Source: a virus
Lineage: Duplodnaviria; Caudoviricetes
IMG/VR virus record: IMGVR_UViG_3300021964_000073
Location: 1 to 58,464 of that record
Length of the DNA stretch: 58,464 nucleotides
Direction: 5' to 3' (one strand)
Part shown: positions 11,185 through 58,138 of the stretch, in pieces
Position numbering within the stretch: the first letter of the stretch is position 1
How the letters are laid out: each line of letters opens with the position of its first letter
Translations under genes and position numbers: made by a program
The notes under the pieces: model-generated
The model's database searches: none
What the model saw: only the letters and a program-made list of their open reading frames with translations
What the model was told of the DNA's origin: nothing

Positions 11185-11853
11185 TTATCTTATTTCATCC
11201 CTAGTAACATGTTTGACGATTCGCTTGATAGTAGCGCCTGCCATTATACACAAACTTAAATATCGTTTATCTTTAAGCCAAAAGTAAAGGCCACCAGTTG
11301 ATCCTCTATTTACAGCATCCATTGCTGTCTTTCCTATTTTTATCTTGTCTTCATTTGCTTCAACAAAATCTTTAAATGCTGGATTACATTTATAACCAAG
11401 AAAGCATTTATAACGCCATTGAACTGGTTTGTCAACTATAACAACATTAGGATGTTCTAATAAAAATTCTATATCGTTATGACTTTTTGGAGTGTGTATT
11501 TCAGCTAAACCTATTCTTTTATCAAGATGTTCAAGCCAAGCTAGGTCATTGGTATATATGCCAAGTGTTATTCCTTCAGCCCGTAGTGTGTATTCTGATT
11601 CTAAACTTTTTAATTCGTCAAACAACACACAAGCATCTGCAAATTCATCAAACTTAACTGTTTGTTGATACGCTCTTGCAGGGTTATATAAAGGCATACC
11701 AGCTTCGGCGTTAGCTTGTAAATAGTCTAAATTTGTTTTAATGGATTTAAGGTTAGCATTCCGAAAAACGCTAGCCAAACTTGTCATTATTACACCCTTA
11801 CATACAAACTTATTGTAAAAAAGTGTATTAGTATCATGCCTCTTGGAGGACAT
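11185..11853 (-). CDS. Hypothetical protein
   Basis: 222-aa ORF overlapping the end of clpA. Confidence 0.6.
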   Translation of the reverse strand: MSSKRHDTNTLFYNKFVCKGVIMTSLASVFRNANLKSIKTNLDYLQANAEAGMPLYNPARAYQQTVKFDEFADACVLFDELKSLESEYTLRAEGITLGIYTNDLAWLEHLDKRIGLAEIHTPKSHNDIEFLLEHPNVVIVDKPVQWRYKCFLGYKCNPAFKDFVEANEDKIKIGKTAMDAVNRGSTGGLYFWLKDKRYLSLCIMAGATIKRIVKHVTRDEIR

Positions 11854-14074
11854 TGTTCTTATCTACTGTTAATATGATTTCTTCGTCAGCATCAATTGTA
11901 AGAGTTCCTCCATCTTTAAGATCACCAAACAACATTTTCTTAGATAAAGGACGCTTAATATCTTTATCAATAACACGTTGTAATGGACGAGCTCCCATTG
12001 CTTTATCAAAACCTTTTTCAACCAAATAATCAATACATTCATTTGTTACACTAACTGTAATTTTTTTGTCATTTAACATAATTCTAAGTTCTTTTAAGAA
12101 TTTGCCAACAATTTTAATCATTACATTTTTATCTAGTTTGTTAAATGTAACAACACCGTCAAGTCTATTTCTAAATTCAGGTGCAAAGTATTTCTTCAAT
12201 TCAGTATCTTCGTAATTAGTGTCTTCTGCGTCACCAAATCCAATAGTGCTTTTTTCTGCTTGTTCAGCACCAAGGTTTGTAGTTAGAATAAGTGTACAAT
12301 TACGTGCATCTGCTTCTTTACCATCACTACCAGTTACTTTACCGTTATCCATAACCTGTAACAAGATTTGTGCAACATCGGGATGAGCTTTTTCTATTTC
12401 ATCCAGGAGTAGAACACAATTAGGATTTTCTTGTAATTTATTAATTAATATACCACTGCCTTCATCGTGTCCTACGTAACCTGGAGGAGAGCCAATTAGT
12501 TTAGCAAGACTATGTTTTTCTTGAAATTCTGACATATCAAAACGTACAAGTTTTACATTTAAGTTGTGTGCTAACTGTTTTGCTAGTTCTGTTTTACCAA
12601 CACCAGTTGGACCCATGAATACAAAGGCTCCAATTGGTTTATCTTCGCTTTTTAATCCTGCTTGGGCTACAAGAATTTTATCAGTAATTTCATCTACTGC
12701 TGTATCTTGGCCGAACACCTCGGATTTTATATTTTTAGCCAATGATGCTAAGTTACTTGTTTCCTTCTGCTGAATCTGATCAGGTGGTAAACCAACAACT
12801 TTAGCAAGTTCAAATTGAATCTCTTCTTTTCCTACTACTCTTTCTGAAACATCCATAACTTTAAATCTTGAACACGCTAAGTCAATTAAGTCGATTGCTT
12901 TATCAGGCAACTTTTTATCTGTCATATACTTAACGCTAAGTTTCACTGCTTCTTCAATTGCTTCGTCAGTAATCTCAGCTTCGTGATGTTCTTCATAATA
13001 TTTTTTAATACCTTTTAAAATATCATATGTAATTTCTTTAGTAGGTTCTTCAACACTAACACGTTGGAATCTACGCATTAATGCTCTATCTTTTTCAAAA
13101 TACTTTCTGTATTCGTCCCAAGTAGTAGATGCTACTACTTTAATGTCACCTTTACCTAGTGCCGGCTTTAACATGTTTGCAAGATCATTTGCATTACCTT
13201 GTCCGCCTGAACCTGCACCATTCATCATGTGTGCTTCGTCGATGAATACAATACATTTACCTTGTTTTTTAATACCGGCCATTACTAGCTTAAAGCGTTC
13301 TTCAAAATCTCCGCGGTATTTACTACCAGCAAGCATAGCACCAATATCTAAATTATAAACTGAATAGTCTTGTAAGAAACTAGGAACTTGTTTGTTAACA
13401 ATTTTGTGTGAAAGACCTTCTGCAATAGCAGTTTTACCTACACCTGGCTCACCAACAAGTAAGACATTGTTTTTACTTCTACGTCCTAGTGCAAGAGCTA
13501 ATGTTTCAAGCACATCTTCACGTCCGATAACAGGATCAATTTTACCTTTGTCAACTTCTTTGTTAAGATTAGTTGTAAATGCACGTAACGCTTTTTGTGC
13601 GGCACCTGCAAGTTCTGCATCTTCAATATCTTGATCAACATTTAATTCAAGATATTCAGTAAATTCTTCTTTGTTTATGCCAACTTTATGTATCTCATAT
13701 AATGACCAACTTTTTTGCTCACTAAGTAAACTTAGAAAGATATCATTCACTTCAATGGTATTACGTCCAGCAAATAAAACTTGTGCAAATGCTCTGTTCA
13801 AAGCACGTTCAACTGCTTGTGTTTTTTTAGGCTTAAAGTTTGTTACATCTTCTGGTAGAGTAATTTCTTCAAGTTTAGTTTTTAAATAATGTTCAATATT
13901 TTTCTTTAACAACTCTGAATCGGAACCATATTCATCTATCACTTTTGCAAAACTTTCGTGACATAGCATTGCATAAAGCAAATGCTCTAAGGTTACATAT
14001 TCGTGTCGTAATTTACGAGCATCTTGGACAGCTTTATCAAATACTGCCTGCAAATTTTTACTTGGTTCTACCAT
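11834..14074 (-). CDS. clpA: ATP-dependent Clp protease ATP-binding subunit
   Basis: Clp N-domain (HEYVTLEHLL), two Walker A (GEPGVGKT, GPTGVGKT), KYRGDFEER, FDMSE, IGF ClpP-docking loop, MGARPL; no ClpB M-domain; start placed after SD GGAGA. Confidence 0.93.
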   Translation of the reverse strand: MVEPSKNLQAVFDKAVQDARKLRHEYVTLEHLLYAMLCHESFAKVIDEYGSDSELLKKNIEHYLKTKLEEITLPEDVTNFKPKKTQAVERALNRAFAQVLFAGRNTIEVNDIFLSLLSEQKSWSLYEIHKVGINKEEFTEYLELNVDQDIEDAELAGAAQKALRAFTTNLNKEVDKGKIDPVIGREDVLETLALALGRRSKNNVLLVGEPGVGKTAIAEGLSHKIVNKQVPSFLQDYSVYNLDIGAMLAGSKYRGDFEERFKLVMAGIKKQGKCIVFIDEAHMMNGAGSGGQGNANDLANMLKPALGKGDIKVVASTTWDEYRKYFEKDRALMRRFQRVSVEEPTKEITYDILKGIKKYYEEHHEAEITDEAIEEAVKLSVKYMTDKKLPDKAIDLIDLACSRFKVMDVSERVVGKEEIQFELAKVVGLPPDQIQQKETSNLASLAKNIKSEVFGQDTAVDEITDKILVAQAGLKSEDKPIGAFVFMGPTGVGKTELAKQLAHNLNVKLVRFDMSEFQEKHSLAKLIGSPPGYVGHDEGSGILINKLQENPNCVLLLDEIEKAHPDVAQILLQVMDNGKVTGSDGKEADARNCTLILTTNLGAEQAEKSTIGFGDAEDTNYEDTELKKYFAPEFRNRLDGVVTFNKLDKNVMIKIVGKFLKELRIMLNDKKITVSVTNECIDYLVEKGFDKAMGARPLQRVIDKDIKRPLSKKMLFGDLKDGGTLTIDADEEIILTVDKNNVLQEA

Positions 14075-14104
14075 GTTGTTAATATTCTCCATAACTTAAT
14101 ATAC

Positions 14105-20750: not shown

Positions 20751-21410
20751 CAACTCTTCAACTAATGGAAAAATTTTAGCAATAGCTTTTGCACATTCTA
20801 CTGCTATTTCCATATGCTCTTTTTGTGTGCCATTTGCACTACGTAATTCAATGTAGTGTACCCAACTTCTTATTGTTCCGTTCATGTACAAACGTGTTTT
20901 TGTAAGTCCTTCTGGAAGTACTGCACGAGCTTGTTCTTTTGCTATTCCGTTATTAATAGCCCACTCATATGCTTTACCTGCTGTATACATTACATCTTGT
21001 TGCATTTCTTCCCATTTATCGTTTAGTACAGTATCTTCTGTTTCAATACTATTTTGTCTATTTTTAGTATCTTGTAAACGGGCTTCTCTTACAACAAACA
21101 TATCACCCATTTCACTAGGCTCTGCGTAACGTTGACTAAACTCTTGAAAAGCAAAACTACGGTGACGTACAATTTGATGTGCAATATCACGTGTAGTTTC
21201 AATTTCTAATGTAGCATTAGCCATTTCTAAAGGTGACCAGTGTTGATGCTTGATTAGATACTTAATTAAACGTTCACTTGTTTCTTTATTAATCTGCGCC
21301 GCTGGATTTGAAACTTTAGCACAAAACGCAATTAAGTCCTGTACGTTTTCTAATCCTTCATTGATAAATTCTTGGGTAGGTTGCGAGTAGCTTACTAGTT
21401 TTACATTCAT
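20739..21410 (-). CDS. thyX: Flavin-dependent thymidylate synthase
   Basis: RHR-x7-S signature (RHRSFAFQEFSQRY), HWSPLE, KEQARAVLP, QKEH; start MNVKLV by TAATG coupling. Confidence 0.96.
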   Translation of the reverse strand: MNVKLVSYSQPTQEFINEGLENVQDLIAFCAKVSNPAAQINKETSERLIKYLIKHQHWSPLEMANATLEIETTRDIAHQIVRHRSFAFQEFSQRYAEPSEMGDMFVVREARLQDTKNRQNSIETEDTVLNDKWEEMQQDVMYTAGKAYEWAINNGIAKEQARAVLPEGLTKTRLYMNGTIRSWVHYIELRSANGTQKEHMEIAVECAKAIAKIFPLVEELKGA

Positions 21411-22906
21411 TAATTTTTCCATTCTAATAATGTTGGGTCCATACTCATATTCAGATATAAACCGTAGTTGTCAATTGCTTCTTTATGTGTTACTGTTCCG
21501 TTCTTTGTTTGGCTTTCATCCATTTGTGATTTCCAATCTTTAAGAACTTCTAATGCAGTTTCGTCAGATATGTTAGATGTTGCACCTATTTCTTTTTCAG
21601 TTTGTAATAACCAACATAGCCAATTACTACCTCCGAAGAAGTGCCCTTTACCGTCATTAGGTAAACGTTTACCTTCTTTGATTAGTCTACGATACCATAA
21701 TAGTGTTTCACTAGGAATATAAGTTTCTTTTACAAAATTCCAAAATGGTGTATCAAAATCACTTCTTGCATAATGCATGTTTATGAAGTCAATAGTATCT
21801 TCATATATACTTGTCATAATTGAATTGTACATATCAATATCAGCTTGTGTAAAATATTGCTGTCTAATACGTGCGGCTAATGTATAAATTGCTCCTGTAA
21901 TAGTAGCAAGACCTGTACTTTCAAGTGGTTCAATAAATCCTCCACTAAGTCCAATAGCACAAACATTTTTATCCCAAGGGTTAGTATTATAATAAGGCGT
22001 CCAGTCGATAACTTTTAATTGTTCTGGTGTAATTCTATTATTCCAATATTCACAAAAACGTTTCTTTGCTTCTTCCGGACTTGTTATACTTCTATTAAAA
22101 ACTAGTCCACTACCAATGCGTGTTTGTACAGGAATATTCCAAACCCAACCGCAATCAACTGCTTCACTAACAACATAAGGATGTTTTTCTCTAAGTTCAT
22201 TTTCGTAAGGCACATGACCTGCTACTGCTGTATCACAAAACAGTCTACCTTTTAAGTCGACTCTATCTGCGTTATTTTGTAGCAGTTGTTTGAATCCAGT
22301 ACAATCTACAAAAAAGTCACCTTTTACATTTTGTCCATCTAATAAATCAATACTAGTAATAAAACCTTCGTCGTCTCTATTGATGTTTGTCATTTCACTT
22401 TTAATTACTGTTACATGATCTTTCAATTGATCTTGCAACCATTGTACTAGTTTACTAGCATCAATATGACTGGCATAAAAATTTAAATTTTCTGTGTCAA
22501 CTTTATTATCCTGACTTAGGCGCCAAAATGCTCCTAACTCTGTAAAGTCAAAATCCTTTTGGTGATGAGTCCAGGCTTCAAAAACACTAGTTTCTTTTTC
22601 AGGATATTCTCTATTAAGGAAAAAAGGATGCCATACTAAATTGTCATCTTTGCCCCAATTTGGAAAAAGTATACCACTTTTATATGTACTGTCAATTAAA
22701 TCAAACCAACTGTCTGTAGGGAATCCACAGCGTTTTAAAAAGGTATCAAAATGCAACAAAGTGCCTTCACCTACGCCAACACTAGCACCAACTTCTTTAT
22801 CAACTAGAGTAACATGCATATCTAAATTACGTGCTATAAAAGCCGCAGTAAACCATGCACTTGTGCCACCGCCTACAATTACTACACTATTAACTTCTTT
22901 AAACAT
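21410..22906 (-). CDS. Tryptophan halogenase-family flavoprotein
   Basis: GGGTSAW, VGVGEGT, TYKSGI, WVWNIP, FIEPLESTG; start MFKEVN by TAATG coupling. Confidence 0.9.
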   Translation of the reverse strand: MFKEVNSVVIVGGGTSAWFTAAFIARNLDMHVTLVDKEVGASVGVGEGTLLHFDTFLKRCGFPTDSWFDLIDSTYKSGILFPNWGKDDNLVWHPFFLNREYPEKETSVFEAWTHHQKDFDFTELGAFWRLSQDNKVDTENLNFYASHIDASKLVQWLQDQLKDHVTVIKSEMTNINRDDEGFITSIDLLDGQNVKGDFFVDCTGFKQLLQNNADRVDLKGRLFCDTAVAGHVPYENELREKHPYVVSEAVDCGWVWNIPVQTRIGSGLVFNRSITSPEEAKKRFCEYWNNRITPEQLKVIDWTPYYNTNPWDKNVCAIGLSGGFIEPLESTGLATITGAIYTLAARIRQQYFTQADIDMYNSIMTSIYEDTIDFINMHYARSDFDTPFWNFVKETYIPSETLLWYRRLIKEGKRLPNDGKGHFFGGSNWLCWLLQTEKEIGATSNISDETALEVLKDWKSQMDESQTKNGTVTHKEAIDNYGLYLNMSMDPTLLEWKN

Positions 22907-23229
22907 TAACCTGTCCTTACAATTATATGTACACCGAACGGTGTAATGCATGGAGGAGCAAGCGTATCTATACCTGAAATTTTAACAGCATTACTAAAAT
23001 CTGGATGCATTTGTTCTTCTTCAAACCAACCCAAGTCTCCATAAGATCTTTTTCCACTAGGACACGCACTATTTTTAGCCGCGGCATCGTTCCAAGTAGT
23101 CTTGCCTGTTTCAATATCTCTTATAATATTTGCCGCATCTTGCATAGCTACACCGAGCGGTCTATTATGTGTACTCATCTCTGCTTTGTCATAACTTAAT
23201 AAAATATGTTTTGCTTTAAGCTTCATCAT
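22906..23229 (-). CDS. Parvulin-type peptidyl-prolyl isomerase
   Basis: AKHIL, SACPS, GDLGWF, TPFGVHII. Confidence 0.92.
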   Translation of the reverse strand: MMKLKAKHILLSYDKAEMSTHNRPLGVAMQDAANIIRDIETGKTTWNDAAAKNSACPSGKRSYGDLGWFEEEQMHPDFSNAVKISGIDTLAPPCITPFGVHIIVRTG

Positions 23230-51808: not shown

Positions 51809-51837
51809 ATTATATAGTCGAATAGTTAAAATGTCAA
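51809..51837 (-). promoter_or_regulatory. sigma70-type early promoter
   Basis: TTGACA-17 nt-TATAAT. Confidence 0.85.
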
Positions 51838-51842
51838 GTCTT

Positions 51843-53165
51843 TTAAATTTTTTCACCAGCTTTGAAACCCCTAAAGGTTTTAAAACGAGGGAAACGCAAA
51901 CTATACGTATCACTGTCTTGTGACTTAGTTCTTGCGTCTGCTCTAATTTCTATTAGCTGACCAATGAGACTAGCACGTTCAGTCCAGTACTCATCACGTT
52001 GAGAGTCAGTGAAACCGCTCCCACAGTTAAGGCGATAATTGTATCCATCGTCTTCTCCTTCTACTATTACGGCACCTAGTCTCCCCGCATTACGTCCAGT
52101 GCCTTCCTCGACGTCTACGACTTTTAGTGTAATTTCAATAAATGGTTTTGCTTTAAGCCAAGCATGTGTTCGTTTACATTCGTAGGGTGCATCAACATCT
52201 TTGATCATAACCCCTTCGTAACCACCGTCTACAGCCGTCTTATTAAGCTCTACAAAGCGTTTATTACCTTCTTCAGTACTAAGGTCTACCTCTTCCCATT
52301 CACACGCTGTAACGTGCTTTAAAAGGTCTTCGTTCTCTAGCACCCAATACTTGACTAAGTTACTACGATATGTTTGTGGTTTATCCCAACCACCTTCTAA
52401 AAAGTCTTTCAACGGAATAAAGTCAAACAAGTGTAGTACTGAGTCAGTTGCGGCCTTGCCGTCTTTTCTATGTACTTGCTTCATAAGGTCTTGAAAGTCT
52501 TTGCTCATTACTTCACCGTCTAGTACACAATCATATGGACTAGGCTTTCGTTCTAGTACTGATTCAATCTCTTCGATGATGTGTGGGAAGTTATGAAACT
52601 GTTTACCATTACGACTAAACAATTCTACCTTGCCTGAACGACATATAGCTAATACTCTTACACCGTCCAATTTAACTTCAATTTGTTTCTTGCCTACCAT
52701 TTTCTTTTCATGGTTAGCTGAATCGTGTGCTAAGGCACAAGTAAATGTTGGAATTGTATATTGTGGAAATTTCTTAGCAATTTTGTTAACAGTCTTTTCA
52801 CTTACACCGCAACGTAGGTCTTTGATTAAAATGCGTCTGTAAAAGCCGTTCCACTGTTCGGCAGTAGCAACACTCATTGCAAGTGCAATAGCATCACGTG
52901 CCGCATGTCCTGTAAGTTCACGGTTGATAAGTTGATTAGCCAGTACCTTAAAGTTACTCCAATCTAGTCCTTGTCCGTCCCATTCACTGTCTGCTTCTGG
53001 AACTTGTTTAACACCAAATGTAACAAGTGGATCTAGTGCCATTTTAACACCTTCAAAGAACTCATCTAGTCCTTCTTCCATTGCTTCTAAGATTACTTGT
53101 TCTTTTGCTAGACGACTGTTGTCTGCTTCTAGTTTTTGTATAATAGCCTGTGGTTGCGTTCTCAT
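51843..53165 (-). CDS. ATP-dependent DNA ligase
   Basis: EVKLDGVR (adenylated Lys), LDGEV, FDFI, EGVMIK, WLKAK, GSGF, LRFPRF. Confidence 0.96.
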   Translation of the reverse strand: MRTQPQAIIQKLEADNSRLAKEQVILEAMEEGLDEFFEGVKMALDPLVTFGVKQVPEADSEWDGQGLDWSNFKVLANQLINRELTGHAARDAIALAMSVATAEQWNGFYRRILIKDLRCGVSEKTVNKIAKKFPQYTIPTFTCALAHDSANHEKKMVGKKQIEVKLDGVRVLAICRSGKVELFSRNGKQFHNFPHIIEEIESVLERKPSPYDCVLDGEVMSKDFQDLMKQVHRKDGKAATDSVLHLFDFIPLKDFLEGGWDKPQTYRSNLVKYWVLENEDLLKHVTACEWEEVDLSTEEGNKRFVELNKTAVDGGYEGVMIKDVDAPYECKRTHAWLKAKPFIEITLKVVDVEEGTGRNAGRLGAVIVEGEDDGYNYRLNCGSGFTDSQRDEYWTERASLIGQLIEIRADARTKSQDSDTYSLRFPRFKTFRGFKAGEKI

Positions 53166-53195
53166 GTGTGCCTCTCATTAATTAATTATGTGTAT

Positions 53196-53224
53196 ATATT
53201 AGCACCATTTGATATAATTGTCAA
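53196..53224 (-). promoter_or_regulatory. sigma70-type promoter of the ligase
   Basis: TTGACA-17 nt-TAATAT. Confidence 0.6.
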
Positions 53225-53231
53225 CCGAAAA

Positions 53232-53305
53232 TGGACACTAAGGCCGGAATCGAACCGGCGTACACGGAGTTGCAGTCCGTTGCATAGCCACTCTGCCACT
53301 TAGTG
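53232..53305 (-). tRNA. tRNA-Cys (GCA)
   Basis: Acceptor CACTAAG/CTTAGTG, anticodon arm ACGGA-CTGCAAC-TCCGT, GTTCGATTC, U73, encoded CCA. Confidence 0.93.
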
Positions 53306-53307
53306 AT

Positions 53308-53384
53308 TGGTCGGAGTAGTAGGATTCGAACCTACGATCTCTTGGTCCCAAACCAAGCGCCTTACCAAACTAGGCCATACTCCG
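53308..53384 (-). tRNA. tRNA-Pro (TGG)
   Basis: Acceptor CGGAGTA/TACTCCG, CTTGG-TTTGGGA-CCAAG, GTTCGAATC, A73, CCA. Confidence 0.94.
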
Positions 53385-53458
53385 TGGCATCGGTGCAGGG
53401 AGTCGAACCCCGGCTTACAGTTTTGGAGACTGTCGTGCTACCATAACACTTCACCGAT
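53385..53458 (-). tRNA. tRNA-Trp (CCA)
   Basis: Acceptor ATCGGTG/CACCGAT, ACAGT-CTCCAAA-ACTGT, GTTCGACTC, G73, CCA. Confidence 0.93.
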
Positions 53459-53495
53459 AAAAAAAGCCCCTAACCGAATTAACTGCTAGGGGCTT
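53459..53495 (-). terminator. Intrinsic terminator (attenuator 3:4 hairpin) directly 5' of tRNA-Trp
   Basis: AAGCCCCTAGC-AGTTAATTCG-GTTAGGGGC followed by T7. Confidence 0.88.
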
Positions 53496-53523
53496 ACTTA
53501 AAATAACTTTTTAAAAAGTCACG

Positions 53524-53583
53524 TCAAGACATACCCCCGGATGGTGGCCAACAAGTAATATATGCTGTATTAGTCTTGATCAT
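53524..53583 (-). CDS. Attenuator leader peptide MIKTNTAYITCWPPSGGMS
   Basis: SD AAAGGA 8 nt before ATG; consecutive TGT TGG CCA CCA codons match the downstream Cys, Trp and Pro tRNAs. Confidence 0.8.
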   Translation of the reverse strand: MIKTNTAYITCWPPSGGMS

Positions 53584-53615
53584 GTTAAAATTCCTTTGTT
53601 TCTTAGTATGTATAT

Positions 53616-53644
53616 ACTATACTACATTTATTTATCGTTGTCAA
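53616..53644 (-). promoter_or_regulatory. sigma70-type promoter of the leader-tRNA operon
   Basis: TTGACA-17 nt-TATAGT. Confidence 0.75.
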
Positions 53645-53666
53645 CCTTTAAATTATTAGTTTTGAG

Positions 53667-54281
53667 TTAATCCCATAGACTTTCGTAATATCTGCCAAAC
53701 AATCTAAACCCGTTTGTCATACGTTCTTGGTGTGCATTAGCACCTTCACTGTCCCATTTGTTGTAGTCGTAATCTGACATCCAGTCGTCTCGACACTTTT
53801 GTTCGAACGCCCAGATCATTTCATCTAAGATCCAATCCCAACGCTCAAAAAACTTTTCGTCAGTGGTTCCATCTTTCTTATATGCTAATTTTTGATGAAC
53901 ATTCATGCGTAGCTCTTTAGGGACATCTACGTTTTCAACATAAGGAGCACCGTGCTTGGTTTCTTTCAACTGTTTAAGCATAGGTAAGATGATAGGAGCA
54001 AGAGTATGATCCATACTCCATGTGTCCCAACGATCAATATGTACCTTTACCTTTTGCACTCTCCTGTCAAGGAATAGATTAATAGTGCAGTTGTAGATAG
54101 TCTGCAAAATATCTTCCAGTTTTTCCAAGAACGCTTCTTTAAACGGTTGATGTTTGCCTGGGCCTAAACCTTTACTTGAACCATACACTGGCCAATCCAC
54201 ATAGCCATACTTTCGATCCATATAACGTGTATGAACGTTGCTTATCCATCTGTTGGGATAATTTCTAATACTAATCTTCAT
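53667..54281 (-). CDS. Hypothetical phage protein
   Basis: WDTWSMDHTLA.II.PML.QL...HGAP, RWDWILDEMIWAF, GFRLFGRYY..LWD. Confidence 0.75.
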   Translation of the reverse strand: MKISIRNYPNRWISNVHTRYMDRKYGYVDWPVYGSSKGLGPGKHQPFKEAFLEKLEDILQTIYNCTINLFLDRRVQKVKVHIDRWDTWSMDHTLAPIILPMLKQLKETKHGAPYVENVDVPKELRMNVHQKLAYKKDGTTDEKFFERWDWILDEMIWAFEQKCRDDWMSDYDYNKWDSEGANAHQERMTNGFRLFGRYYESLWD

Positions 54282-54366
54282 AATAATCTACAACTATTCT
54301 GTTAACACTATTGTATTACTAGTGTGCTTATACATGCTCTAACTAACACTAGTGTAGTAGTTGTAT

Positions 54367-54403
54367 ACTCTATCCAACATTTGACAGCAACTCTATCCAA
54401 CAT
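54367..54403. repeat. 14-bp direct repeat, 23-bp period
   Basis: ACTCTATCCAACAT at 54367-54380 and 54390-54403, intergenic. Confidence 0.85.
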
Positions 54404-54409
54404 CTTGCG

Positions 54410-54922
54410 TTACTCATGTTCGCCACCTGGATCGTTAGGATCTAAAGGAACCTTACGAGCATTGCCTTTTTCATCACGCCAAATAGTATATGTTCTACCT
54501 CGACCATATGATGTGTATCCATTAGCAAAATTAAAAGCACTAGGCTTACGTTTTGCTGTTTCAAACGTACCTACTGTGATTGCAATAGCACCTAACAGTA
54601 ATGTGTGTAGTACCATACTAAACACTCCCATGTACATGCTACCTACAATGATACCAAATACAATACACCACATCCATGCAAGTACCTGCATAATCATATG
54701 TCGTGTGCTAAAGTCTGGAATTGCACTTAGAGGATTCTTGTTATGATCCATTACTACATTCCAACAATTATAAATCCACTCTCTCATGGAAGTCTCCTTT
54801 TCAAATGTTACTTTCTTAGGGTAATGTGCATCGGCTACATCTCGCCAGTCTATAGCATCATACAAGTCGACAAATGATTGTGTGACTTTATGATTCTTGA
54901 AGTATGCTGTTACTCTATACAT
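54410..54922 (-). CDS. Membrane protein with two in-frame starts
   Basis: Upstream ATG 6 nt after a -10 box; internal AAGGAG-N6-ATG at 54787; two TM helices. Confidence 0.7.
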   Translation of the reverse strand: MYRVTAYFKNHKVTQSFVDLYDAIDWRDVADAHYPKKVTFEKETSMREWIYNCWNVVMDHNKNPLSAIPDFSTRHMIMQVLAWMWCIVFGIIVGSMYMGVFSMVLHTLLLGAIAITVGTFETAKRKPSAFNFANGYTSYGRGRTYTIWRDEKGNARKVPLDPNDPGGEHE

Positions 54923-54928
54923 TTTATT

Positions 54929-54957
54929 AATATAACACTTTTTTCACTGTATGTCAA
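54929..54957 (-). promoter_or_regulatory. sigma70-type promoter
   Basis: TTGACA-17 nt-TATATT. Confidence 0.65.
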
Positions 54958-54963
54958 ATATTT

Positions 54964-55047
54964 TGGTGCGCCTGGAGGGACTTGAACCCCCACGCCGTAA
55001 AGCACTGGTACCTAAAACCAGCGTGTCTACCATTTCACCACAGGCGC
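54964..55047 (-). tRNA. tRNA-Leu (TAG)
   Basis: GCGCCTG/CAGGCGC, CTGGT-TTTAGGT-ACCAG, long variable arm, GTTCAAGTC, A73, CCA. Confidence 0.94.
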
Positions 55048-55081
55048 GGTTGAGAGCTAACCGTTGACTCTCGCGAGCGTA

Positions 55082-55339
55082 TTAAGTCGCCACACTATCC
55101 TGTAATTCCTCTTGATCGACGTCATCGACAACTTCAGGCTCATCTAACTCTTTCTGATAATACTGTATTAGTTTTTCTTTTAGATCAACTCCGTCAAACT
55201 CGCCATCTTCTAGCCTTCGTATTGCGTCACCTTGACCGCTTGCTTGTTTAGTTCTAATTAGGTATGTACATACTCCAACTAAATCTGTTCTATTGATGCC
55301 TGTTTTTTGCATCGCTTCTTCAATGAAGACTCTCCCCAA
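55082..55339 (-). CDS. Hypothetical protein between tRNA genes
   Basis: 85-aa ORF with acidic tail. Confidence 0.55.
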   Translation of the reverse strand: MGRVFIEEAMQKTGINRTDLVGVCTYLIRTKQASGQGDAIRRLEDGEFDGVDLKEKLIQYYQKELDEPEVVDDVDQEELQDSVAT

Positions 55340-55361
55340 TATCTTTACCTTTCAAGTAAGT

Positions 55362-55435
55362 TGGAGCGGGTAAGGAGAATCGAACTCCTATCATTAGCTT
55401 GGAAGGCTAAGGTCTTACCATTACACAATACCCGC
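55362..55435 (-). tRNA. tRNA-Gly (TCC)
   Basis: GCGGGTA/TACCCGC, TTAGC-CTTCCAA-GCTAA, U73, CCA. Confidence 0.94.
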
Positions 55436-55439
55436 GTGT

Positions 55440-55529
55440 TGGCGGAAGATGTAGGATTCGAACCCACGGAAGAGTTACCCCTTCGACGGTTTAGTAAACC
55501 GTTGCTTTAAACCACTCAGCCAATCTTCC
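55440..55529 (-). tRNA. tRNA-Ser with rare ACT anticodon
   Basis: GGAAGAT/ATCTTCC, ACGGT-TTACTAA-ACCGT, long variable arm GAAGGG-GTAA-CTCTTC, G73, CCA. Confidence 0.9.
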
Positions 55530-55540
55530 AATGTTATATT

Positions 55541-55987
55541 CTACTTAGTGTAACGTAGCGAATAACTACGTCCATTAGAGTAAAAGTTAATAGTACTATG
55601 GCTATAAACTTCTTCTCTTGATTCTTCATAACGTGTTTCAATATTACAGCGTCTTTGTGTGCCGCCAGTAGCCTTTGAATTGTTATGACCAATCATGCCT
55701 CCAAGTACAGCACCTAAAGCACCACCGTTTTTAACATCACCTACATTGTTACCAATGATGCCTCCAATGATAGCACCTTTAAGCATGTCACCTGATTTGT
55801 CTCCACCGTAAGAATAATCTTTACAAACTTCAACACGGTAAGGTGTTTGGTTAACTACCCATTTGTAATGATCTGTTACTTGGCCATTAACTGAACCTTC
55901 AGCATGTGCCGCACCACTAAATCCTAGTGTTAAGCCTACTGCGGCTGAGATAACAAAGGTGTGGAAAGTTTTTTCAAAATATTTCAT
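55541..55987 (-). CDS. Exported glycine-zipper protein
   Basis: Signal peptide (AHA/E); GAIIGGIIG and GAVLGGMIG. Confidence 0.8.
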   Translation of the reverse strand: MKYFEKTFHTFVISAAVGLTLGFSGAAHAEGSVNGQVTDHYKWVVNQTPYRVEVCKDYSYGGDKSGDMLKGAIIGGIIGNNVGDVKNGGALGAVLGGMIGHNNSKATGGTQRRCNIETRYEESREEVYSHSTINFYSNGRSYSLRYTK

Positions 55988-55996
55988 TTTAATCTC

Positions 55997-56284
55997 CTAT
56001 GATGATGATTGGACTTTAGTTACACGATCATATTTAAATGAACGCCAACCTTTAGCATTGATGTCCCAAACAGTTACATTACCTTTAGGAGGTTCTTTTT
56101 CTGTCTTAGGACGGTTCTCTTCAGGAATAATATCATATGACTTTGTGCATGTCATAACTCTTTCATCTCCGTCAAGTTTATTAAAAGTAACAACAAGTGT
56201 GCTTTCTTTTAACTGTTTATTTAGTTCCTCTACTGTAGGGATACCTTTTAATTCTGCAATTTTATCTTGTACTTCTGGTGCCAT
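55997..56284 (-). CDS. Phage SH3/WYL-like beta-barrel protein
   Basis: VTFNKLDGDERVMTCT...VWDINAKGWRSF. Confidence 0.75.
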   Translation of the reverse strand: MAPEVQDKIAELKGIPTVEELNKQLKESTLVVTFNKLDGDERVMTCTKSYDIIPEENRPKTEKEPPKGNVTVWDINAKGWRSFKYDRVTKVQSSS

Positions 56285-56481
56285 TATAATTCCTCCGCAA
56301 TGCCTAGTATTTCAGCAACAAGTAACCCTGCGGCTAACCAACCCCAAGCGCCTGTGGCTAGGGCAACTACACATCCTGCAATACGTATTGCACTTTTTAC
56401 AAGACTAATATAAAAATGTTTCTTACTTGGATCCTTAGGTTCAGGTGCTCCGGGAACATATACTCTTTCTGGAATAGGCAT
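56284..56481 (-). CDS. Small membrane protein
   Basis: HFYISLVKSAIRI...AEILGIAEEL. Confidence 0.7.
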   Translation of the reverse strand: MPIPERVYVPGAPEPKDPSKKHFYISLVKSAIRIAGCVVALATGAWGWLAAGLLVAEILGIAEEL

Positions 56482-57098
56482 TATCGTTTCTCCACAACCA
56501 TATCAGCAAGACCCCATTCGACTGCTTCTTCGGCAGTCAAGAATGTATCAAACTTCATCGTTTCAGCCATTTCGTCATATGTCTTACCTGCTGTATTGTG
56601 TTTCACATATAATTCTGTAAGACGCTTGTTTACTTTCTTAGACTCTTCCATAGAACGACGAGCATCTTCAAATTCTAACTCTTGTACATATACACTACCG
56701 CTTGTGCCTCGTGTACCACTTGACACTCTGTGAATCATTGTACGACTCTCTGGAAGCACTACACGTTTGCCTTTTGCACCTGCTTGTGCTAAGAATGATC
56801 CCATTGAACATGCCTGACCCATTACAGTAGTTCTTACATCACTCTTGATGTACTGCATTGTATCGTAAATAGCTAGGCCGGCTGTAACTTGTCCGCCGGG
56901 TGAATTAATATATAAATTAATATCTTTTTCTGCATTATCACTTTCTAAGAAAAGCATCTGTGCTACAATCAAGTTAGCCATGTTATCTTCAACAGGACCA
57001 TTAAGCATAATAATGCGGTCTTTCATTAAACGTGAATAGATATCGTATGAGCGTTCGCCTCTGCGTTCTTGCTCAACTACCATAGGTACTAGTGGCAT
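56481..57098 (-). CDS. clpP: ATP-dependent Clp protease proteolytic subunit
   Basis: DIYSRL..DRII, YINSPGG, ACSMGS (Ser), MIH (His), DTFLTAEEA (Asp). Confidence 0.96.
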
Positions 57099-57292: not shown

Positions 57293-57519
57293 CGTCCTCG
57301 TCCTTCTTTTGTTATGTGTTCAATAGGTCCCGGAGTTGTAAATTCGTATCCAAATGCATTACCGACATATACTCTTCCGTTGTATTTCATATGAATCTTA
57401 TTAGTTGCCATTGCAACAATACAATGATCTTTTTCTTTGTAAGACATTACTTCTGCTTCTACAATTCTATCGTTATTAGTACAAGTTACCTTGCATGTTT
57501 CTTCAATGTGCGATTTCAT
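57289..57519 (-). CDS. Hypothetical protein
   Basis: Probable start MKSHIEE with SD AAGGA. Confidence 0.6.
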   Translation of the reverse strand: MKSHIEETCKVTCTNNDRIVEAEVMSYKEKDHCIVAMATNKIHMKYNGRVYVGNAFGYEFTTPGPIEHITKEGRGR

Positions 57520-58138
57520 AATTATCCTTAATATTAACACGATTTACTTCAGTTGTCAACCTTTTTCTTACCATTTTGTGTATACCAGGATTGACTTTTA
57601 ATACGTGATGCATCATATTGTGTCTAATATGATTTCTCATGTAACTGGTATCGTTATTACTTTCATCTTCTAAGTATGGTACATTTTTAATATTGCACCA
57701 AAGCTCTAAATCACGTTTACGGTTATGTCTAAATGGACGAATTACATTTCCTCTAGCATACGGAATAGTTCTACTCTCACCATGCATACTAGTAAACATC
57801 CAAGTTTCAACACAATCATCTAAATGATGTCCCATAACAACTGTTTCTCTAATATTATGTAGGAACTTGTATCTTTCGTCTCTCCAGTGTTCTTCTTGAC
57901 TCTTTTCGGCAGGCTTAGGATGACCTTTAATTTCATCTGAAATAAATTCTAATTTATGTTTAGTACAGTAGTCGTCAAGAAAGTCGTATGCTTCGATACC
58001 GTGCGGTGTTAGGTGATTGTAATAGGCAACTTGTACATCATGATTACGTTTTAGAAAATCTAAAATAGCCATGCTATCTGCGCCGCCTGAACAAGCAACT
58101 ACAACGTTACGTGGAAGTTTTCCTTCGACTTTAATCAT
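57503..58138 (-). CDS. tilS: tRNA(Ile)-lysidine synthetase, catalytic domain only
   Basis: PP-loop SGGADS, RDERY, GHHLDD..ET, IRP, EDESN, RNHIR. Confidence 0.9.
   Translation of the reverse strand: MIKVEGKLPRNVVVACSGGADSMAILDFLKRNHDVQVAYYNHLTPHGIEAYDFLDDYCTKHKLEFISDEIKGHPKPAEKSQEEHWRDERYKFLHNIRETVVMGHHLDDCVETWMFTSMHGESRTIPYARGNVIRPFRHNRKRDLELWCNIKNVPYLEDESNNDTSYMRNHIRHNMMHHVLKVNPGIHKMVRKRLTTEVNRVNIKDNYEIAH
57531..57559 (-). promoter_or_regulatory. sigma70-type promoter inside the tilS 3' end
   Basis: TTGACA-17 nt-TAATAT. Confidence 0.55.

What the first reader, a model, noticed from the sequence alone, without database searches (positions are those of the whole stretch)
53232..53644. Leader-peptide transcription attenuator controlling a phage tRNA operon: Cys-Trp-Pro-Pro codons upstream of tRNA-Trp, -Pro and -Cys
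Seen on the minus strand, in order: promoter TTGACA-17-TATAGT (53644-53616); SD AAAGGA; 19-codon ORF MIKTNTAYITCWPPSGGMS (53583-53524) containing TGT-TGG-CCA-CCA; a strong intrinsic terminator (53495-53459); then, with no spacer, tRNA-Trp(CCA), tRNA-Pro(TGG) and tRNA-Cys(GCA). These three tRNAs decode exactly that codon run. The classic alternative pairings are present. 1:2 is CATG-A-TCAAGAC..ATAC with GTAT-GTCTTGA-CGTG. The 2:3 antiterminator is GGGGGT..CTTGA..TGACTTT/AAAGTTA..TTAAG..GCCCCT, which captures the 5' arm of the terminator. 3:4 is AAGCCCCTA/TAGGGGCTT. Established knowledge: this is the trp/his-type attenuation layout, normally found in front of amino-acid biosynthesis or synthetase genes. 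Inference: a ribosome stalled for lack of charged tRNA-Cys, -Trp or -Pro leaves segment 2 free, the antiterminator forms, and the phage transcribes replacement tRNAs. That would be an on-demand tRNA rescue circuit, for example against host anticodon nucleases or starvation. I know of no described leader-peptide attenuator controlling tRNA genes, or one in a phage. Caveat: stalling at the last Pro may still cover the G-run, so Cys/Trp are the likeliest triggers; the Pro-Pro pair might instead report EF-P status.
Basis: partly seen in the sequence, partly recalled or inferred. Interest (0 to 1): 0.97.

Follow-up and report, generated by a model that had tools for sequence, protein, structure and literature searches.

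The report
Leader-peptide attenuator controlling phage tRNA genes
A family of marine giant phages places a tiny translated "test" gene and a stop-or-go RNA switch in front of its tRNA genes, and the codons of the test gene match the tRNAs that follow, so the phage seems to make extra tRNAs only when ribosomes run short of them.

Summary
On the minus strand lie, in order, a near-consensus promoter, a Shine-Dalgarno site, a 19-codon ORF (…Cys-Trp-Pro-Pro…), three alternative helices, a strong intrinsic terminator, and tRNA-Trp/Pro/Cys with no spacer.

The unit is conserved. I collected 76 distinct versions from IMG/VR phage contigs. tRNA-Trp follows in all 74 with enough downstream sequence, and every leader ORF has a TGG codon. 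The downstream tRNA set varies, and the codons beside TGG vary with it:
- 90 of 100 non-Trp operon tRNAs have a cognate codon within three codons of TGG (62.4±2.7 after permutation; 0 of 5000 permutations reach 90).
- In 30 independent nearest-neighbour pairs, 18 differences were concordant and 1 discordant.
- Matching codons lie 10–30 nt upstream of the G-run that starts the antiterminator, where a stalled ribosome would leave it free.

ORF length changes in whole codons. The start:stop helix and the terminator show compensatory changes. The antiterminator folds in 53 of 53 leaders, but its covariation is weak.

Best reading: a trp-type, ribosome-mediated attenuator acting as a tRNA-supply homeostat. 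It is a new variant of a known mechanism, and seven literature searches found no description. There is no experimental proof. In this window the Pro codons are probably too close to the G-run to sense.

The parts
53616..53644 (-). Sigma-70-type promoter of the leader and tRNA operon: TTGACA, 17-nt spacer, TATAGT
   Evidence: One search gives an 11 of 12 match. A promoter scoring at least 10 of 12 lies at the same place in 72 of 76 distinct leaders. In 5 leaderless relatives the same kind of promoter sits directly before tRNA-Trp.
53592..53597 (-). Shine-Dalgarno AAAGGA, 8 nt before the ATG
   Evidence: Read. An SD-like motif is present in 66 of 76 leaders.
53524..53583 (-). Leader ORF of 19 codons plus TGA: MIKTNTAYITCWPPSGGMS
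   Evidence: Read. The ORF is present in 76 of 76 leaders at 15-24 codons. The start-to-core distance is 43, 46, 49, 52 or 55 nt in 63 of 69 leaders, so length changes come in whole codons. ATG changes to GTG with a compensating change in the partner strand in 3 sequences.
53548..53553 (-). Likely sensing codons TGT (Cys) and TGG (Trp): the last two positions at which a stalled ribosome leaves the G-run free
   Evidence: with the A site at codons 2-12 the nascent RNA forms the antiterminator (4 of 4 G:C pairs); from codon 13 on it is blocked. TGG is invariant. Cys codons track tRNA-Cys.
53542..53547 (-). CCA CCA (Pro-Pro): probably not sensors in this copy; a possible intrinsic pause that parks the ribosome over the G-run
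   Evidence: One search shows the antiterminator blocked at these positions. Pro codons do not track tRNA-Pro; the share of Pro codons with tRNA-Pro in the operon falls from 14/23 at 13-15 nt to 4/18 at 4-6 nt from the G-run. WPPP is described as an arrest motif in passages of PMC11669330.
53573..53584 (-). Segment 1: the 5' strand of helix P1 (CATGATCAAGAC), which includes the start codon
   Evidence: RNAalifold predicts the helix on its own. Pair 17:95 is AU in 50 sequences and GC in 3.
53520..53530 (-). Segment 2: the 3' strand of P1 (GTCTTGACGTG), which includes the TGA stop. Alternatively it forms the middle of the antiterminator.
53488..53538 (-). Antiterminator (2:3): a long imperfect hairpin from the G-run (53538-53534) to the terminator's 5' arm, with inner hairpin H2 at 53519-53506
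   Evidence: it is the MFE of this segment in 53 of 53 leaders (-13.6 to -24.0 kcal/mol, z -2.0 to -6.0); 92.3% of cells are paired against 40-59% when partners are slid, but covariation does not exceed the shuffles.
53459..53495 (-). Intrinsic terminator (3:4): AAGCCCCTAGC, loop, GTTAGGGGCTT, then a U-run that ends at the base before tRNA-Trp
   Evidence: 96.2% of cells paired; pair 135:146 is UA in 24 sequences and CG in 23. RNA contigs of two runs stop at 53459 (weak hint).
53385..53458 (-). tRNA-Trp(cca), first gene of the operon
   Evidence: ARAGORN calls tRNA-Trp first after the leader in 73 of 76 leaders and it was read by eye in 1 more; 2 leaders lack downstream sequence.
53308..53384 (-). 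tRNA-Pro(tgg)
53232..53305 (-). tRNA-Cys(gca)
53196..53224 (-). Separate promoter (TTGACA, 17-nt spacer, TAATAT, with TG) for the ATP-dependent DNA ligase gene (53165-51843); it marks the 3' limit of the regulated unit
   Evidence: 10 of 12 match; PF01068 and PF14743

Best explanation
This is a ribosome-mediated (leader-peptide) transcription attenuator that controls a phage tRNA operon.

How it is proposed to work:
1. Host RNA polymerase starts at the strong promoter, and a ribosome translates the 19-codon leader.
2. If decoding is fast, the ribosome runs over the G-run to the stop codon and covers the 5' half of the antiterminator. The terminator hairpin then forms and transcription ends at the U-run, one base before tRNA-Trp.
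3. If no ribosome loads, helix P1 (start region with stop region) locks up the same strand and the terminator forms again.
4. If the ribosome waits for a scarce charged tRNA at TGT or TGG (in relatives also at neighbouring ATA, TCA, TAT, CGN, CAA or GAA codons), it stands 10-30 nt upstream of the G-run. The G-run then pairs with the CCCC of the terminator's 5' arm, and the polymerase reads on into tRNA-Trp and the tRNAs behind it.
5. The new tRNAs speed up decoding of the leader and shut the operon down again. This makes a negative-feedback homeostat for exactly the tRNAs the operon carries.

Shown here: the anatomy, its conservation, signatures of translation, compensatory changes in P1 and the terminator, compatibility of the antiterminator, codon-tRNA co-variation and its dependence on position.

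Inferred: that ribosomes stall there, that termination and read-through respond, and what makes the tRNAs scarce.
For: Anatomy in the window.

Conservation:
- nhmmer with alignment A1 finds 153 copies in 270 fetched loci. Of these, 149 are near full length and 76 are distinct.
- In protein-anchored loci that were fetched blind to the leader (L002-L161), 42 of 48 tRNA-Trp genes with at least 250 nt upstream carry it.

Specificity:
- A strong hairpin plus T-run directly before the first tRNA of a cluster occurs in 47 of 77 Trp-first upstream regions and in 4 of 146 others, none of which is analogous.

Signs of translation:
- SD in 66 of 76 leaders; start ATG in 60 and GTG in 16.
- Length varies in whole codons in 63 of 69 leaders.
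- Synonymous CCA/CCT/CCG and TGT/TGC variants occur.
- The stop codon moves (TAG before the G-run in 2 leaders, TAA in the H2 loop in 3) while the RNA sequence stays. The peptide's C-terminus is therefore not what is conserved.

Structure:
- P1 + H2 + terminator: 93.0% of cells paired, 5 pairs and 31 cells changed on both sides, 0 of 500 shuffles reach this.
- RNAalifold independently returns P1 and the terminator.
- The antiterminator is the MFE in 53 of 53 leaders.

Co-variation:
- Within ±3 codons of TGG, 90 of 100 non-Trp operon tRNAs have a cognate codon. Global permutation gives 62.4±2.7 and within-class permutation 73.8±2.3; 0 of 5000 reach 90 in either (n = 61 distinct window/tRNA-set combinations).
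- Per species, given as tRNA+codon+ / tRNA+codon- / tRNA-codon+ / tRNA-codon-: Cys 36/0/14/11 (p = 1e-5); Ser(tga) 9/2/5/45 (5e-6); Ile(tat) or 'Met'(cat) against ATA 14/1/5/41 (7e-9); Tyr 3/0/6/52; Gln 5/1/10/45.
- In 30 non-overlapping nearest-neighbour pairs with different tRNA sets: 18 concordant, 1 discordant, 45 uninformative (p = 3.8e-5).

Single cases checked with the tools:
- L247: TGT TGG CGC CGC…CGT with Trp-Arg(acg)-Cys, and no Pro codon and no tRNA-Pro.
- L238: CGT TGG TGC CCG GAA with Trp-Pro-Cys-Glu-Arg(acg).
- L265: TAT TGG TAT CCA CCG with Trp-Tyr-Pro.
- L225 against L164: TGT against GGT before TGG, with tRNA-Cys against tRNA-Gly.
- L256 against L248: TCA against CCA, with and without tRNA-Ser.

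Position. The share of candidate codons whose tRNA is in the operon, by distance to the G-run:
- more than 30 nt: 28/123
- 22-30 nt: 48/88
- 16-21 nt: 33/50
- 13-15 nt: 30/45
- 10-12 nt: 20/39
- 7-9 nt: 11/47
- 4-6 nt: 4/39
- 3 nt or less: 15/89
This is the profile expected if a stalled ribosome must leave the G-run free. Ribosome-mask folding of the window's leader puts the boundary right after TGG.

Weak hint: RNA contigs of a close relative in two metatranscriptome runs (X17 at depth 58, X18 at depth 93.7) cover 53459-53673 and stop at 53459.
Against: - There is no experimental datum. Termination, read-through and stalling are all inferred.
- Column-wise covariation of the antiterminator does not exceed the shuffles (2 pairs and 8 cells; 144-255 of 500 shuffles reach the observed values). 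Part of its conservation is by ascertainment, because two of my search patterns lay in it.
- The coupling is loose. 45 of 64 tRNA differences between close pairs leave the codons unchanged, and 11 distinct Trp-only leaders keep TGT and CCA CCA.
- tRNA-Ala (L174), Arg(acg) in L223, Arg(gcg), Lys (within ±3 codons) and Gly under strict wobble have no cognate codon.
- Pro codons are nearly universal whether or not tRNA-Pro is present.
- The leaders are related, so permutation p-values overstate independence. The pair test answers this only in part.
- The footprint used (P-site -15 to +15) is an assumption recalled from the literature.
- More tRNA would not help if the amino acid, rather than the tRNA, were limiting.
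- The RNA end at 53459 coincides with the RNase P site of tRNA-Trp, so it does not prove termination. Contigs cannot show ends, and I laid no DNA run beside them.
- RNA contigs of X15 and X16 also cover the promoter region at low depth, so transcription entering from upstream, or DNA in the library, cannot be excluded.
Confidence: 0.8

Rival explanations
1. The leader senses general translation status or an intrinsic nascent-peptide arrest, not tRNA supply. Trp-Pro-Pro stalls the ribosome by itself, so read-through would report EF-P activity or overall ribosome availability. On this view the codons next to TGG are not tRNA sensors.
For: W followed by P, or by C-P, is nearly universal. The W+1 codon is CCN in 47 and TGY in 20 of 69 leaders. 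WPPP and FXXYXIWPPP are described as arrest sequences in E. coli (passages of PMC11669330 and of PMC4176338). Pro codons do not track tRNA-Pro.
Against: The window has only two Pro codons. A ribosome paused at Pro-Pro would cover the G-run and favour termination, not read-through. This view cannot explain why Cys, Ser, ATA, Tyr, Gln, Arg and Glu codons follow the tRNA cargo, or L247, where CGC CGC replaces the Pro codons together with tRNA-Arg(acg). A pause may well be an added feature of the main mechanism.
Confidence: 0.07
2. The unit is a small independent gene for a micropeptide or a small RNA, with its own promoter and terminator, that merely lies upstream of the tRNAs. The tRNAs are made by constitutive leak through the terminator or from upstream transcription.
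For: A discrete RNA covering promoter to terminator appears as a contig in two RNA runs. The N-terminal half of the peptide is fairly conserved. Attenuator RNAs and leader peptides with functions in trans are known in Sinorhizobium (abstracts of PMC6614838 and PMC7298713 in the listing).
Against: - The peptide's C-terminus and length are not conserved, while the RNA is.
- The unit is never found without tRNA-Trp behind it in the 74 of 76 leaders that can be assessed.
- The gap is 0 nt in 40 of 76 leaders.
- The codons co-vary with the tRNA cargo in a way that depends on position.
- A conserved alternative fold overlaps the terminator.
Confidence: 0.06
3. The hairpin and U-run are a processing or stability element of the tRNA precursor (a 5' leader cut by RNase P), not a regulated terminator. 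The small ORF protects or times the precursor.
For: The U-run ends exactly at position -1 of tRNA-Trp, and the RNA contigs end exactly there. Other structured spacers lie between tRNAs in these phages.
Against: An 11-pair GC-rich stem followed by 7 U is a canonical intrinsic terminator. This view does not explain P1, the G-run mimic of the terminator's 3' arm, the placement of the stop codon or the codon co-variation. In more than 15 leaders a separate element of about 80 nt separates terminator and tRNA, so abutment is not required.
Confidence: 0.04
4. The switch works without translation, by direct codon-anticodon pairing of uncharged tRNAs with the leader RNA, as in a T-box.
For: The codons match the tRNAs. 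T-box RNAs sense tRNA directly (established knowledge).
Against: There is no T-box or other riboswitch match even at E up to 10. The leader is far shorter than a T-box. SD, start codon, frame-preserving length changes and stop placement are all conserved. Several different codons in one frame would need several binding sites.
Confidence: 0.02

Closest known systems
E. coli trp operon leader (trpL) and the his, leu and phe leaders: ribosome-mediated transcription attenuation
   Same: Promoter, SD and a short ORF with regulatory codons near its end. Segments 1:2, 2:3 and 3:4 pair in mutually exclusive ways. An intrinsic terminator lies before the first regulated gene. A stalled ribosome frees segment 2, and a ribosome at the stop codon covers it.
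   Different: The regulated genes are tRNAs, not biosynthetic enzymes, so the output restores the sensed quantity (decoding capacity) directly. Segment 1 holds the start codon rather than the control codons. The element is in a phage. There is no sequence or model similarity (Rfam Thr_leader 20.2 bits against a threshold of 55; no Trp_leader hit).
thr and ilv leaders (attenuators that sense several amino acids)
   Same: One leader ORF mixes codons for several amino acids and integrates them.
   Different: Here the mix is rewritten from phage to phage along with the tRNA cargo (Cys, Pro, Ser, Ile-ATA, Tyr, Gln, Arg, Glu). In thr and ilv the mix is fixed by the pathway.
pheST leader-peptide attenuator and T-box riboswitches before aminoacyl-tRNA synthetase genes
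   Same: The translation apparatus is regulated by sensing the state of a specific tRNA through premature termination.
   Different: Those control synthetases, and the T-box binds uncharged tRNA without a ribosome. This unit controls the tRNA genes themselves and bears the marks of translation. No T-box match was found.
Phage tRNA clusters (T4, T5, jumbo phages) thought to compensate for codon usage or loss of host tRNA
   Same: Clusters of phage tRNA genes sit behind host-type promoters. The window's phage belongs to the jumbo group near Agrobacterium phage Atu_ph07, Vibrio phage 2.275.O and E. coli 121Q-like phages (DNA polymerase 42-50% identical).
   Different: I found no report of demand-dependent control of such clusters. 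The leader has no match in 50,697 deposited phage records.
WPPP / FXXYXIWPPP ribosome-arrest peptide
   Same: The window's peptide reads …Y-I-T-C-W-P-P, an aromatic-rich stretch followed by Trp-Pro-Pro.
   Different: It has only two prolines and a different register. The arrest peptide is artificial and acts without tRNA shortage (passages). The resemblance was not tested here.

Membership tests
Ribosome-mediated (leader-peptide) transcription attenuators | Short translated ORF with SD and start codon in the 5' leader | tested here: met
   SD in 66 of 76 leaders, ATG or GTG start in 76 of 76, and whole-codon length changes in 63 of 69. Translation itself was not observed.
Ribosome-mediated (leader-peptide) transcription attenuators | Regulatory codons that correspond to what the operon supplies | tested here: met
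   TGG in 76 of 76 leaders, with tRNA-Trp first. 90 of 100 other operon tRNAs have a cognate codon within ±3 codons, against 62.4±2.7 after permutation. Pair test: 18 concordant, 1 discordant.
Ribosome-mediated (leader-peptide) transcription attenuators | Intrinsic terminator between the leader ORF and the first regulated gene | tested here: met
   an 11-pair stem plus U-run, 96.2% of cells paired, with compensatory changes. Terminator function was not measured.
Ribosome-mediated (leader-peptide) transcription attenuators | Antiterminator that shares a strand with the terminator, and an upstream helix (1:2) that prevents it | tested here: met
   The antiterminator is the MFE in 53 of 53 leaders, with 92.3% of cells paired but weak covariation. 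P1 is in the MFE of 63 of 68 leaders and has compensatory changes.
Ribosome-mediated (leader-peptide) transcription attenuators | Geometry: a stall at the control codons leaves the antiterminator free, and a ribosome at the stop codon masks it | tested here: met
   (with an assumed footprint) places the boundary after TGG; matching codons concentrate 10-30 nt upstream of the G-run. The stop codon lies within the 5' half of the antiterminator in all 68 leaders in which the core was located.
Ribosome-mediated (leader-peptide) transcription attenuators | Read-through rises when the cognate charged tRNA is scarce | not testable with these tools
   This needs reporter, in vitro or 3'-end data. One search gives only RNA contigs.
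Rfam leader families (Trp_leader, Thr_leader, His_leader and others) | Score at or above the family's gathering threshold | tested here: not met
   Thr_leader scores 20.2 bits against 55 (E = 1.5). No other leader family appears at E up to 10. The unit is not a member of any curated family.
T-box riboswitch | Specifier loop and T-box sequence (Rfam model) | tested here: not met
   no T-box match at E up to 10 in 52500-56000.
Nascent-peptide arrest sequences (WPPP type) | Trp followed by three prolines, with the upstream FXXYXI context | tested here: not met
   The window has W-P-P-S and the context Y-I-T-C. The motif is as given in PMC11669330. Stalling was not tested.

The most novel reading that the evidence does not exclude
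Marine jumbo phages carry a codon-programmable tRNA governor. Its short leader ORF is rewritten, codon by codon, whenever the tRNA cargo behind it changes. The phage thereby measures the ribosome's real-time decoding speed for each of its cargo tRNAs and transcribes them only on demand. The demand would arise when host tRNAs are destroyed or outrun during infection, by host anticodon-nuclease defences or by the phage's own shut-off. That would make this the first sensor-actuator circuit known for phage tRNA counter-defence, and the first attenuator whose output is the sensed molecule itself.
Probability: 0.35. Interest if true: 0.95.

Novelty: new variant of a known kind. Interest (0 to 1): 0.9.

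Why it matters
- Why phages carry tRNA genes, and how they are used, is an open question. Codon-usage matching explains little for single-codon Trp. A demand-controlled operon says the phage treats decoding capacity as a regulated quantity, and it names the limiting tRNAs (Trp and Cys first).
- It extends classical attenuation to a new class of target, in which the product feeds back directly on the sensor.
- The natural set of 76 leader variants with different codon and tRNA pairings is a ready-made mutational series for testing attenuation rules.
- A small element of about 140 nt that can be reprogrammed by codon would be a useful part for sensing the availability of individual tRNAs in cells or in cell-free systems.
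- It offers a probe for tRNA-targeting immunity.

Tried and rejected
- **Synteny through the upstream 204-aa gene.** Among the 60 of 80 loci scanned for tRNAs, only L002 (identical to the window) has the unit. L003 has tRNA-Thr without a leader. Most have no tRNA there, so this route was uninformative. The ligase gene and DNA patterns gave the data.
- **Deposited phages.** There is no relative of the leader. In one search only tRNA matches appear among the 60 rows listed of 386 records. In one search the 5 records match the promoter part only.
- **Bacterial and archaeal genomes.** The gapped pattern found 0 hits.
- **Rfam.** Nothing above threshold except tRNAs. The structured insert of about 80 nt also has no family.
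- **Promoter and terminator scan.** Totals are not above the shuffles, and it missed the leader terminator because of its loop size limit.
- **Column-wise covariation of the antiterminator.** Not significant. I rely on per-sequence folding and say so.
- **Analogous leaders before other tRNA clusters.** The 4 of 146 candidates are an ordinary gene-end terminator or structured inter-tRNA spacers.
- **Cultured phages carrying tRNA-Trp.** In Enterococcus phage BC611 a promoter is followed by about 290 nt before tRNA-Trp. I only read it and saw no comparable ORF-terminator unit. In Acinetobacter phage MD-2021a the annotation shows tRNA-Trp inside a Leu-Trp-Leu-Trp array. Neither was analysed further.
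- **RNA runs.** All four are contigs, so depth and uncovered parts say nothing. X15 record 6 crosses 53458/53459 with only 24 bases on the tRNA side, fewer than the 31 required, and is not counted as bridging. No DNA run was laid beside them.
- **Reading 'Met'(cat) as tRNA-Ile2.** This is suggested by its link to ATA codons (8 of 9) and by a TilS N-domain gene in the window, but the tRNA's identity was not tested. The statistics are given with and without it.
- **Supplementary files of papers** were not consulted. None bears on a claim here.
Full report
**What is in the window.** The following lie on the minus strand:
- a promoter, TTGACA, 17-nt spacer, TATAGT (53644-53616; 11 of 12 match);
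- an SD, AAAGGA (53597-53592);
- a 19-codon ORF, MIKTNTAYITCWPPSGGMS* (53583-53524);
- a G-run (53538-53534);
- a small hairpin;
- a terminator with an 11-pair stem and a U-run (53495-53459);
- directly after it, tRNA-Trp(cca), tRNA-Pro(tgg) and tRNA-Cys(gca) (53458-53232);
- then a second promoter and an ATP-dependent DNA ligase gene.

The leader folds better than all 200 shuffles (-39.4 kcal/mol, z = -3.46). The total count of promoter-like sites in the region is not above chance, so the promoter rests on its score, its position and its conservation. No curated RNA family matches.

**Where it comes from.** The window is an IMG/VR virus record estimated 16% complete, with 35-38% G+C. Its DNA polymerase is 42-50% identical to those of jumbo phages: Sinorhizobium phage Phosso, Agrobacterium phage Atu_ph07, Vibrio phage 2.275.O and E. 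coli 121Q-like phages. It also encodes ClpP, a Clp-type ATPase and a TilS N-domain protein. Near-identical DNA occurs in estuary, marine and salt-marsh runs. The host is unknown.

**Relatives.**
- The upstream gene gave little.
- The ligase gene gave 80 loci at 76-93% identity, in which the tRNA block before the ligase varies. The block is Trp alone, Trp-Cys, Trp-Pro, Trp-Pro-Ser-Cys, Trp-Lys-Gln-Cys, Trp-Met(cat)-Pro-Cys and others, or tRNA-Arg, or nothing.
- Wherever tRNA-Trp leads, the same promoter-SD-ORF-hairpins-terminator unit precedes it, with six exceptions.
- Two DNA patterns brought more loci (73 and 100 stretches).
- A profile of alignment A1 (53 sequences) found 153 copies in 270 loci. 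Of these, 149 are near full length and 76 are distinct.
- ARAGORN calls tRNA-Trp as the first downstream gene in 73 of the 76. In L191 it missed a tRNA with a CCA anticodon, which I read by eye. Two leaders lack downstream sequence.
- In the loci fetched by protein, blind to the leader, 42 of 48 tRNA-Trp genes have the leader. The other 6 do not, and 5 of them have a promoter directly before the tRNA. So the leader is an insert between promoter and tRNA.
- Terminators abutting a first tRNA are a Trp-operon speciality: 47 of 77 against 4 of 146.
- The window has one copy.
- Deposited phages and 185,579 prokaryote genomes have none by the searches used.

**Is the ORF translated?**
- SD-like motifs occur in 66 of 76 leaders, and the start is ATG in 60 and GTG in 16.
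- The distance from the start codon to the conserved RNA core is 43, 46, 49, 52 or 55 nt in 63 of 69 leaders, so insertions and deletions come in whole codons.
- Synonymous variants are common: CCA/CCT/CCG and TGT/TGC.
- Where ATG became GTG, the partner base in helix P1 changed as well (AU to GC, 3 sequences).
- The stop codon is not fixed. TAG precedes the G-run in 2 leaders and TAA lies in the H2 loop in 3, while the nucleotides stay the same. The RNA and the act of translation are conserved, not the peptide's C-terminus.

**Structures.**
- The terminated state (P1, H2, terminator) has 93.0% of cells paired, with 5 pairs and 31 cells changed on both sides. No shuffle of 500 reaches this, and slid partners give 33-52%.
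- RNAalifold, left to itself, returns P1 and the terminator.
- The segment from the G-run to the terminator's 5' arm folds as one long imperfect hairpin in 53 of 53 leaders, with the G-run on the CCCC (-13.6 to -24.0 kcal/mol, z -2.0 to -6.0).
- Divergent leaders (L207, L204, L210, L218, L224) keep the architecture with different inner helices.
- Column by column, the antiterminator is 92.3% paired (40-59% when slid), but its covariation does not beat the shuffles. Two of my patterns lay in it, so its sequence conservation is partly by ascertainment.

**The decisive test: do the codons follow the tRNAs?** They do.
- Within three codons of TGG, 90 of 100 non-Trp tRNAs of the contiguous operon have a cognate codon. 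Permuting tRNA sets among leaders gives 62.4±2.7, and permuting within classes of N-terminal tripeptide gives 73.8±2.3. In neither case do any of 5000 permutations reach 90.
- Other window sizes, and counting or dropping 'Met'(cat), give the same result.
- Rows dropped before the count: leaders with less than 600 nt downstream, with an N in the ORF, or without a called tRNA-Trp. Duplicates of window plus tRNA set were collapsed, leaving n = 61.
- By species: every one of 36 tRNA-Cys operons has a Cys codon, and 11 of the 25 without tRNA-Cys lack one. Ser(tga) is 9 of 11 against 5 of 50. ATA with Ile(tat) or 'Met'(cat) is 14 of 15 against 5 of 46. Tyr is 3 of 3 and Gln 5 of 6.
- Pro codons are nearly universal and uninformative. 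Ala, Arg(gcg), Lys within ±3 codons, one of three Arg(acg), and Gly under strict wobble are unmatched.
- To guard against shared descent, I paired each leader with its nearest neighbour (control window masked, pairs non-overlapping, tRNA sets different). Among 64 tRNA differences in 30 pairs, 18 were concordant, 1 discordant and 45 uninformative (p = 3.8e-5).

Individual cases, re-read with the tools:

| Locus | Codons around TGG | Operon tRNAs |
|---|---|---|
| L247 | TGT TGG CGC CGC … CGT | Trp-Arg(acg)-Cys |
| L238 | CGT TGG TGC CCG GAA | Trp-Pro-Cys-Glu-Arg(acg) |
| L265 | TAT TGG TAT CCA CCG | Trp-Tyr-Pro |
| L225 | TGT before TGG | includes tRNA-Cys |
| L164 | GGT before TGG | includes tRNA-Gly |
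| L256 | TCA | includes tRNA-Ser |
| L248 | CCA at the same position | no tRNA-Ser |

**Position.** If a stalled ribosome must leave the G-run free, only codons far enough upstream of it can sense. The share of candidate codons whose tRNA is in the operon, by distance to the G-run, is as follows (59 of 64 distinct leaders in which the core was located):

| Distance to G-run | Codons with their tRNA in the operon / all candidate codons |
|---|---|
| more than 30 nt | 28/123 |
| 22-30 nt | 48/88 |
| 16-21 nt | 33/50 |
| 13-15 nt | 30/45 |
| 10-12 nt | 20/39 |
| 7-9 nt | 11/47 |
| 4-6 nt | 4/39 |
| 3 nt or less | 15/89 |

Pro codons show the same gradient, from 14/23 at 13-15 nt down to 4/18 at 4-6 nt.

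I then folded the window's nascent leader with a ribosome mask. The assumed footprint, P-site -15 to +15, is recalled from toeprinting literature. The antiterminator forms with the A site on any codon up to TGG (codon 12), and it is blocked from the first CCA onward. So in this window Cys and Trp are the plausible triggers. The Pro pair more likely parks the ribosome on the G-run, a possible pause (compare the WPPP arrest motif, passages). That last point is inference.

**RNA data.** Only assembled contigs were available. In two salt-marsh metatranscriptome runs of different coded studies, a contig of a close relative (10 differing letters, 5 gaps) covers 53459-53673 and ends at 53459, with no loose end listed there. 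The depths are 58 and 93.7. This fits a terminated leader RNA, but it fits equally the RNase P product of a read-through transcript. Contigs cannot establish ends, and I laid no DNA run beside them. An X16 contig joins tRNA-Trp to a different upstream hairpin of another relative. I count all this as a weak hint only.

**Comparison with what is known.** Mechanistically this is the trp/his/thr type of attenuation, and every sequence-level defining feature that I could test is met. It belongs to no curated family and is not a T-box. What is new is the target (tRNA genes), the carrier (a phage), and the way the control codons are rewritten with the cargo. Seven full-text searches and passages of five papers turned up no description of a leader-peptide attenuator before tRNA genes. 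Subscription journals are largely outside that library, so this is absence in what was searched.

**Verdict.** My confidence is 0.8 that this is a translation-coupled attenuator matching tRNA transcription to decoding demand. What is unproven: termination and read-through in vivo, the physiological cause of tRNA shortage, and whether codons other than Cys and Trp sense in this particular copy.

Noticed in passing
L229:227-316; L134:2194-2286; L108:2196-2287; L245:816-900 (-); L194:6491-6566 (-): In more than 15 of the 76 leaders a conserved structured RNA of about 75-80 nt sits between the leader terminator and tRNA-Trp. It has a 10-pair closing stem around 2-3 hairpins (cloverleaf-like) and is followed by a U/A-rich tail. 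ARAGORN does not call it a tRNA, and Rfam has no match. Similar elements lie between other tRNAs (L204 and L248).
   Followed up: partly
L188:12982-13053 (-): One relative has a second tiny ORF with an SD (MTDSEYWRWMKSQVE, two Trp codons) between the leader terminator and tRNA-Trp.
   Followed up: no
window 57503-58138 (-): The phage encodes a TilS N-domain protein (TIGR02432, 116.4 bits against a cut-off of 93.6). In relatives, tRNAs with anticodon CAT co-occur with ATA-rich leaders (8 of 9). They may therefore be lysidine-modified tRNA-Ile2 rather than tRNA-Met.
   Followed up: partly
window 55440-55529 (-), also L086-L088 and L238: ARAGORN calls a tRNA-Ser with the unusual anticodon ACT. 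Its decoding role is unclear.
   Followed up: no
window 56481-57098 (-), 11834-14092 (-), 21410-22951 (-): The phage encodes ClpP protease, a Clp-type ATP-dependent protease ATPase (phrog_4871) and a protein like a tryptophan halogenase (phrog_2928).
   Followed up: no
L030:4717-5105; L058:5018-5398: Relatives of this phage group carry tmRNA genes, with tag peptides ending in ALAA.
   Followed up: no
L271:171-492 (Enterococcus phage BC611, AB712291.1): A consensus-like promoter is followed by about 290 nt of apparently structured, non-coding sequence before a lone tRNA-Trp. It may be a different kind of control region. I only read it.
   Followed up: no
window 51809-51837, 54929-54957, 57531-57559 (-): Further near-consensus promoters (10 to 12 of 12 matches) sit in intergenic gaps on the coding strand. 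This suggests many genes here are read by the host's sigma-70-type polymerase.
   Followed up: no
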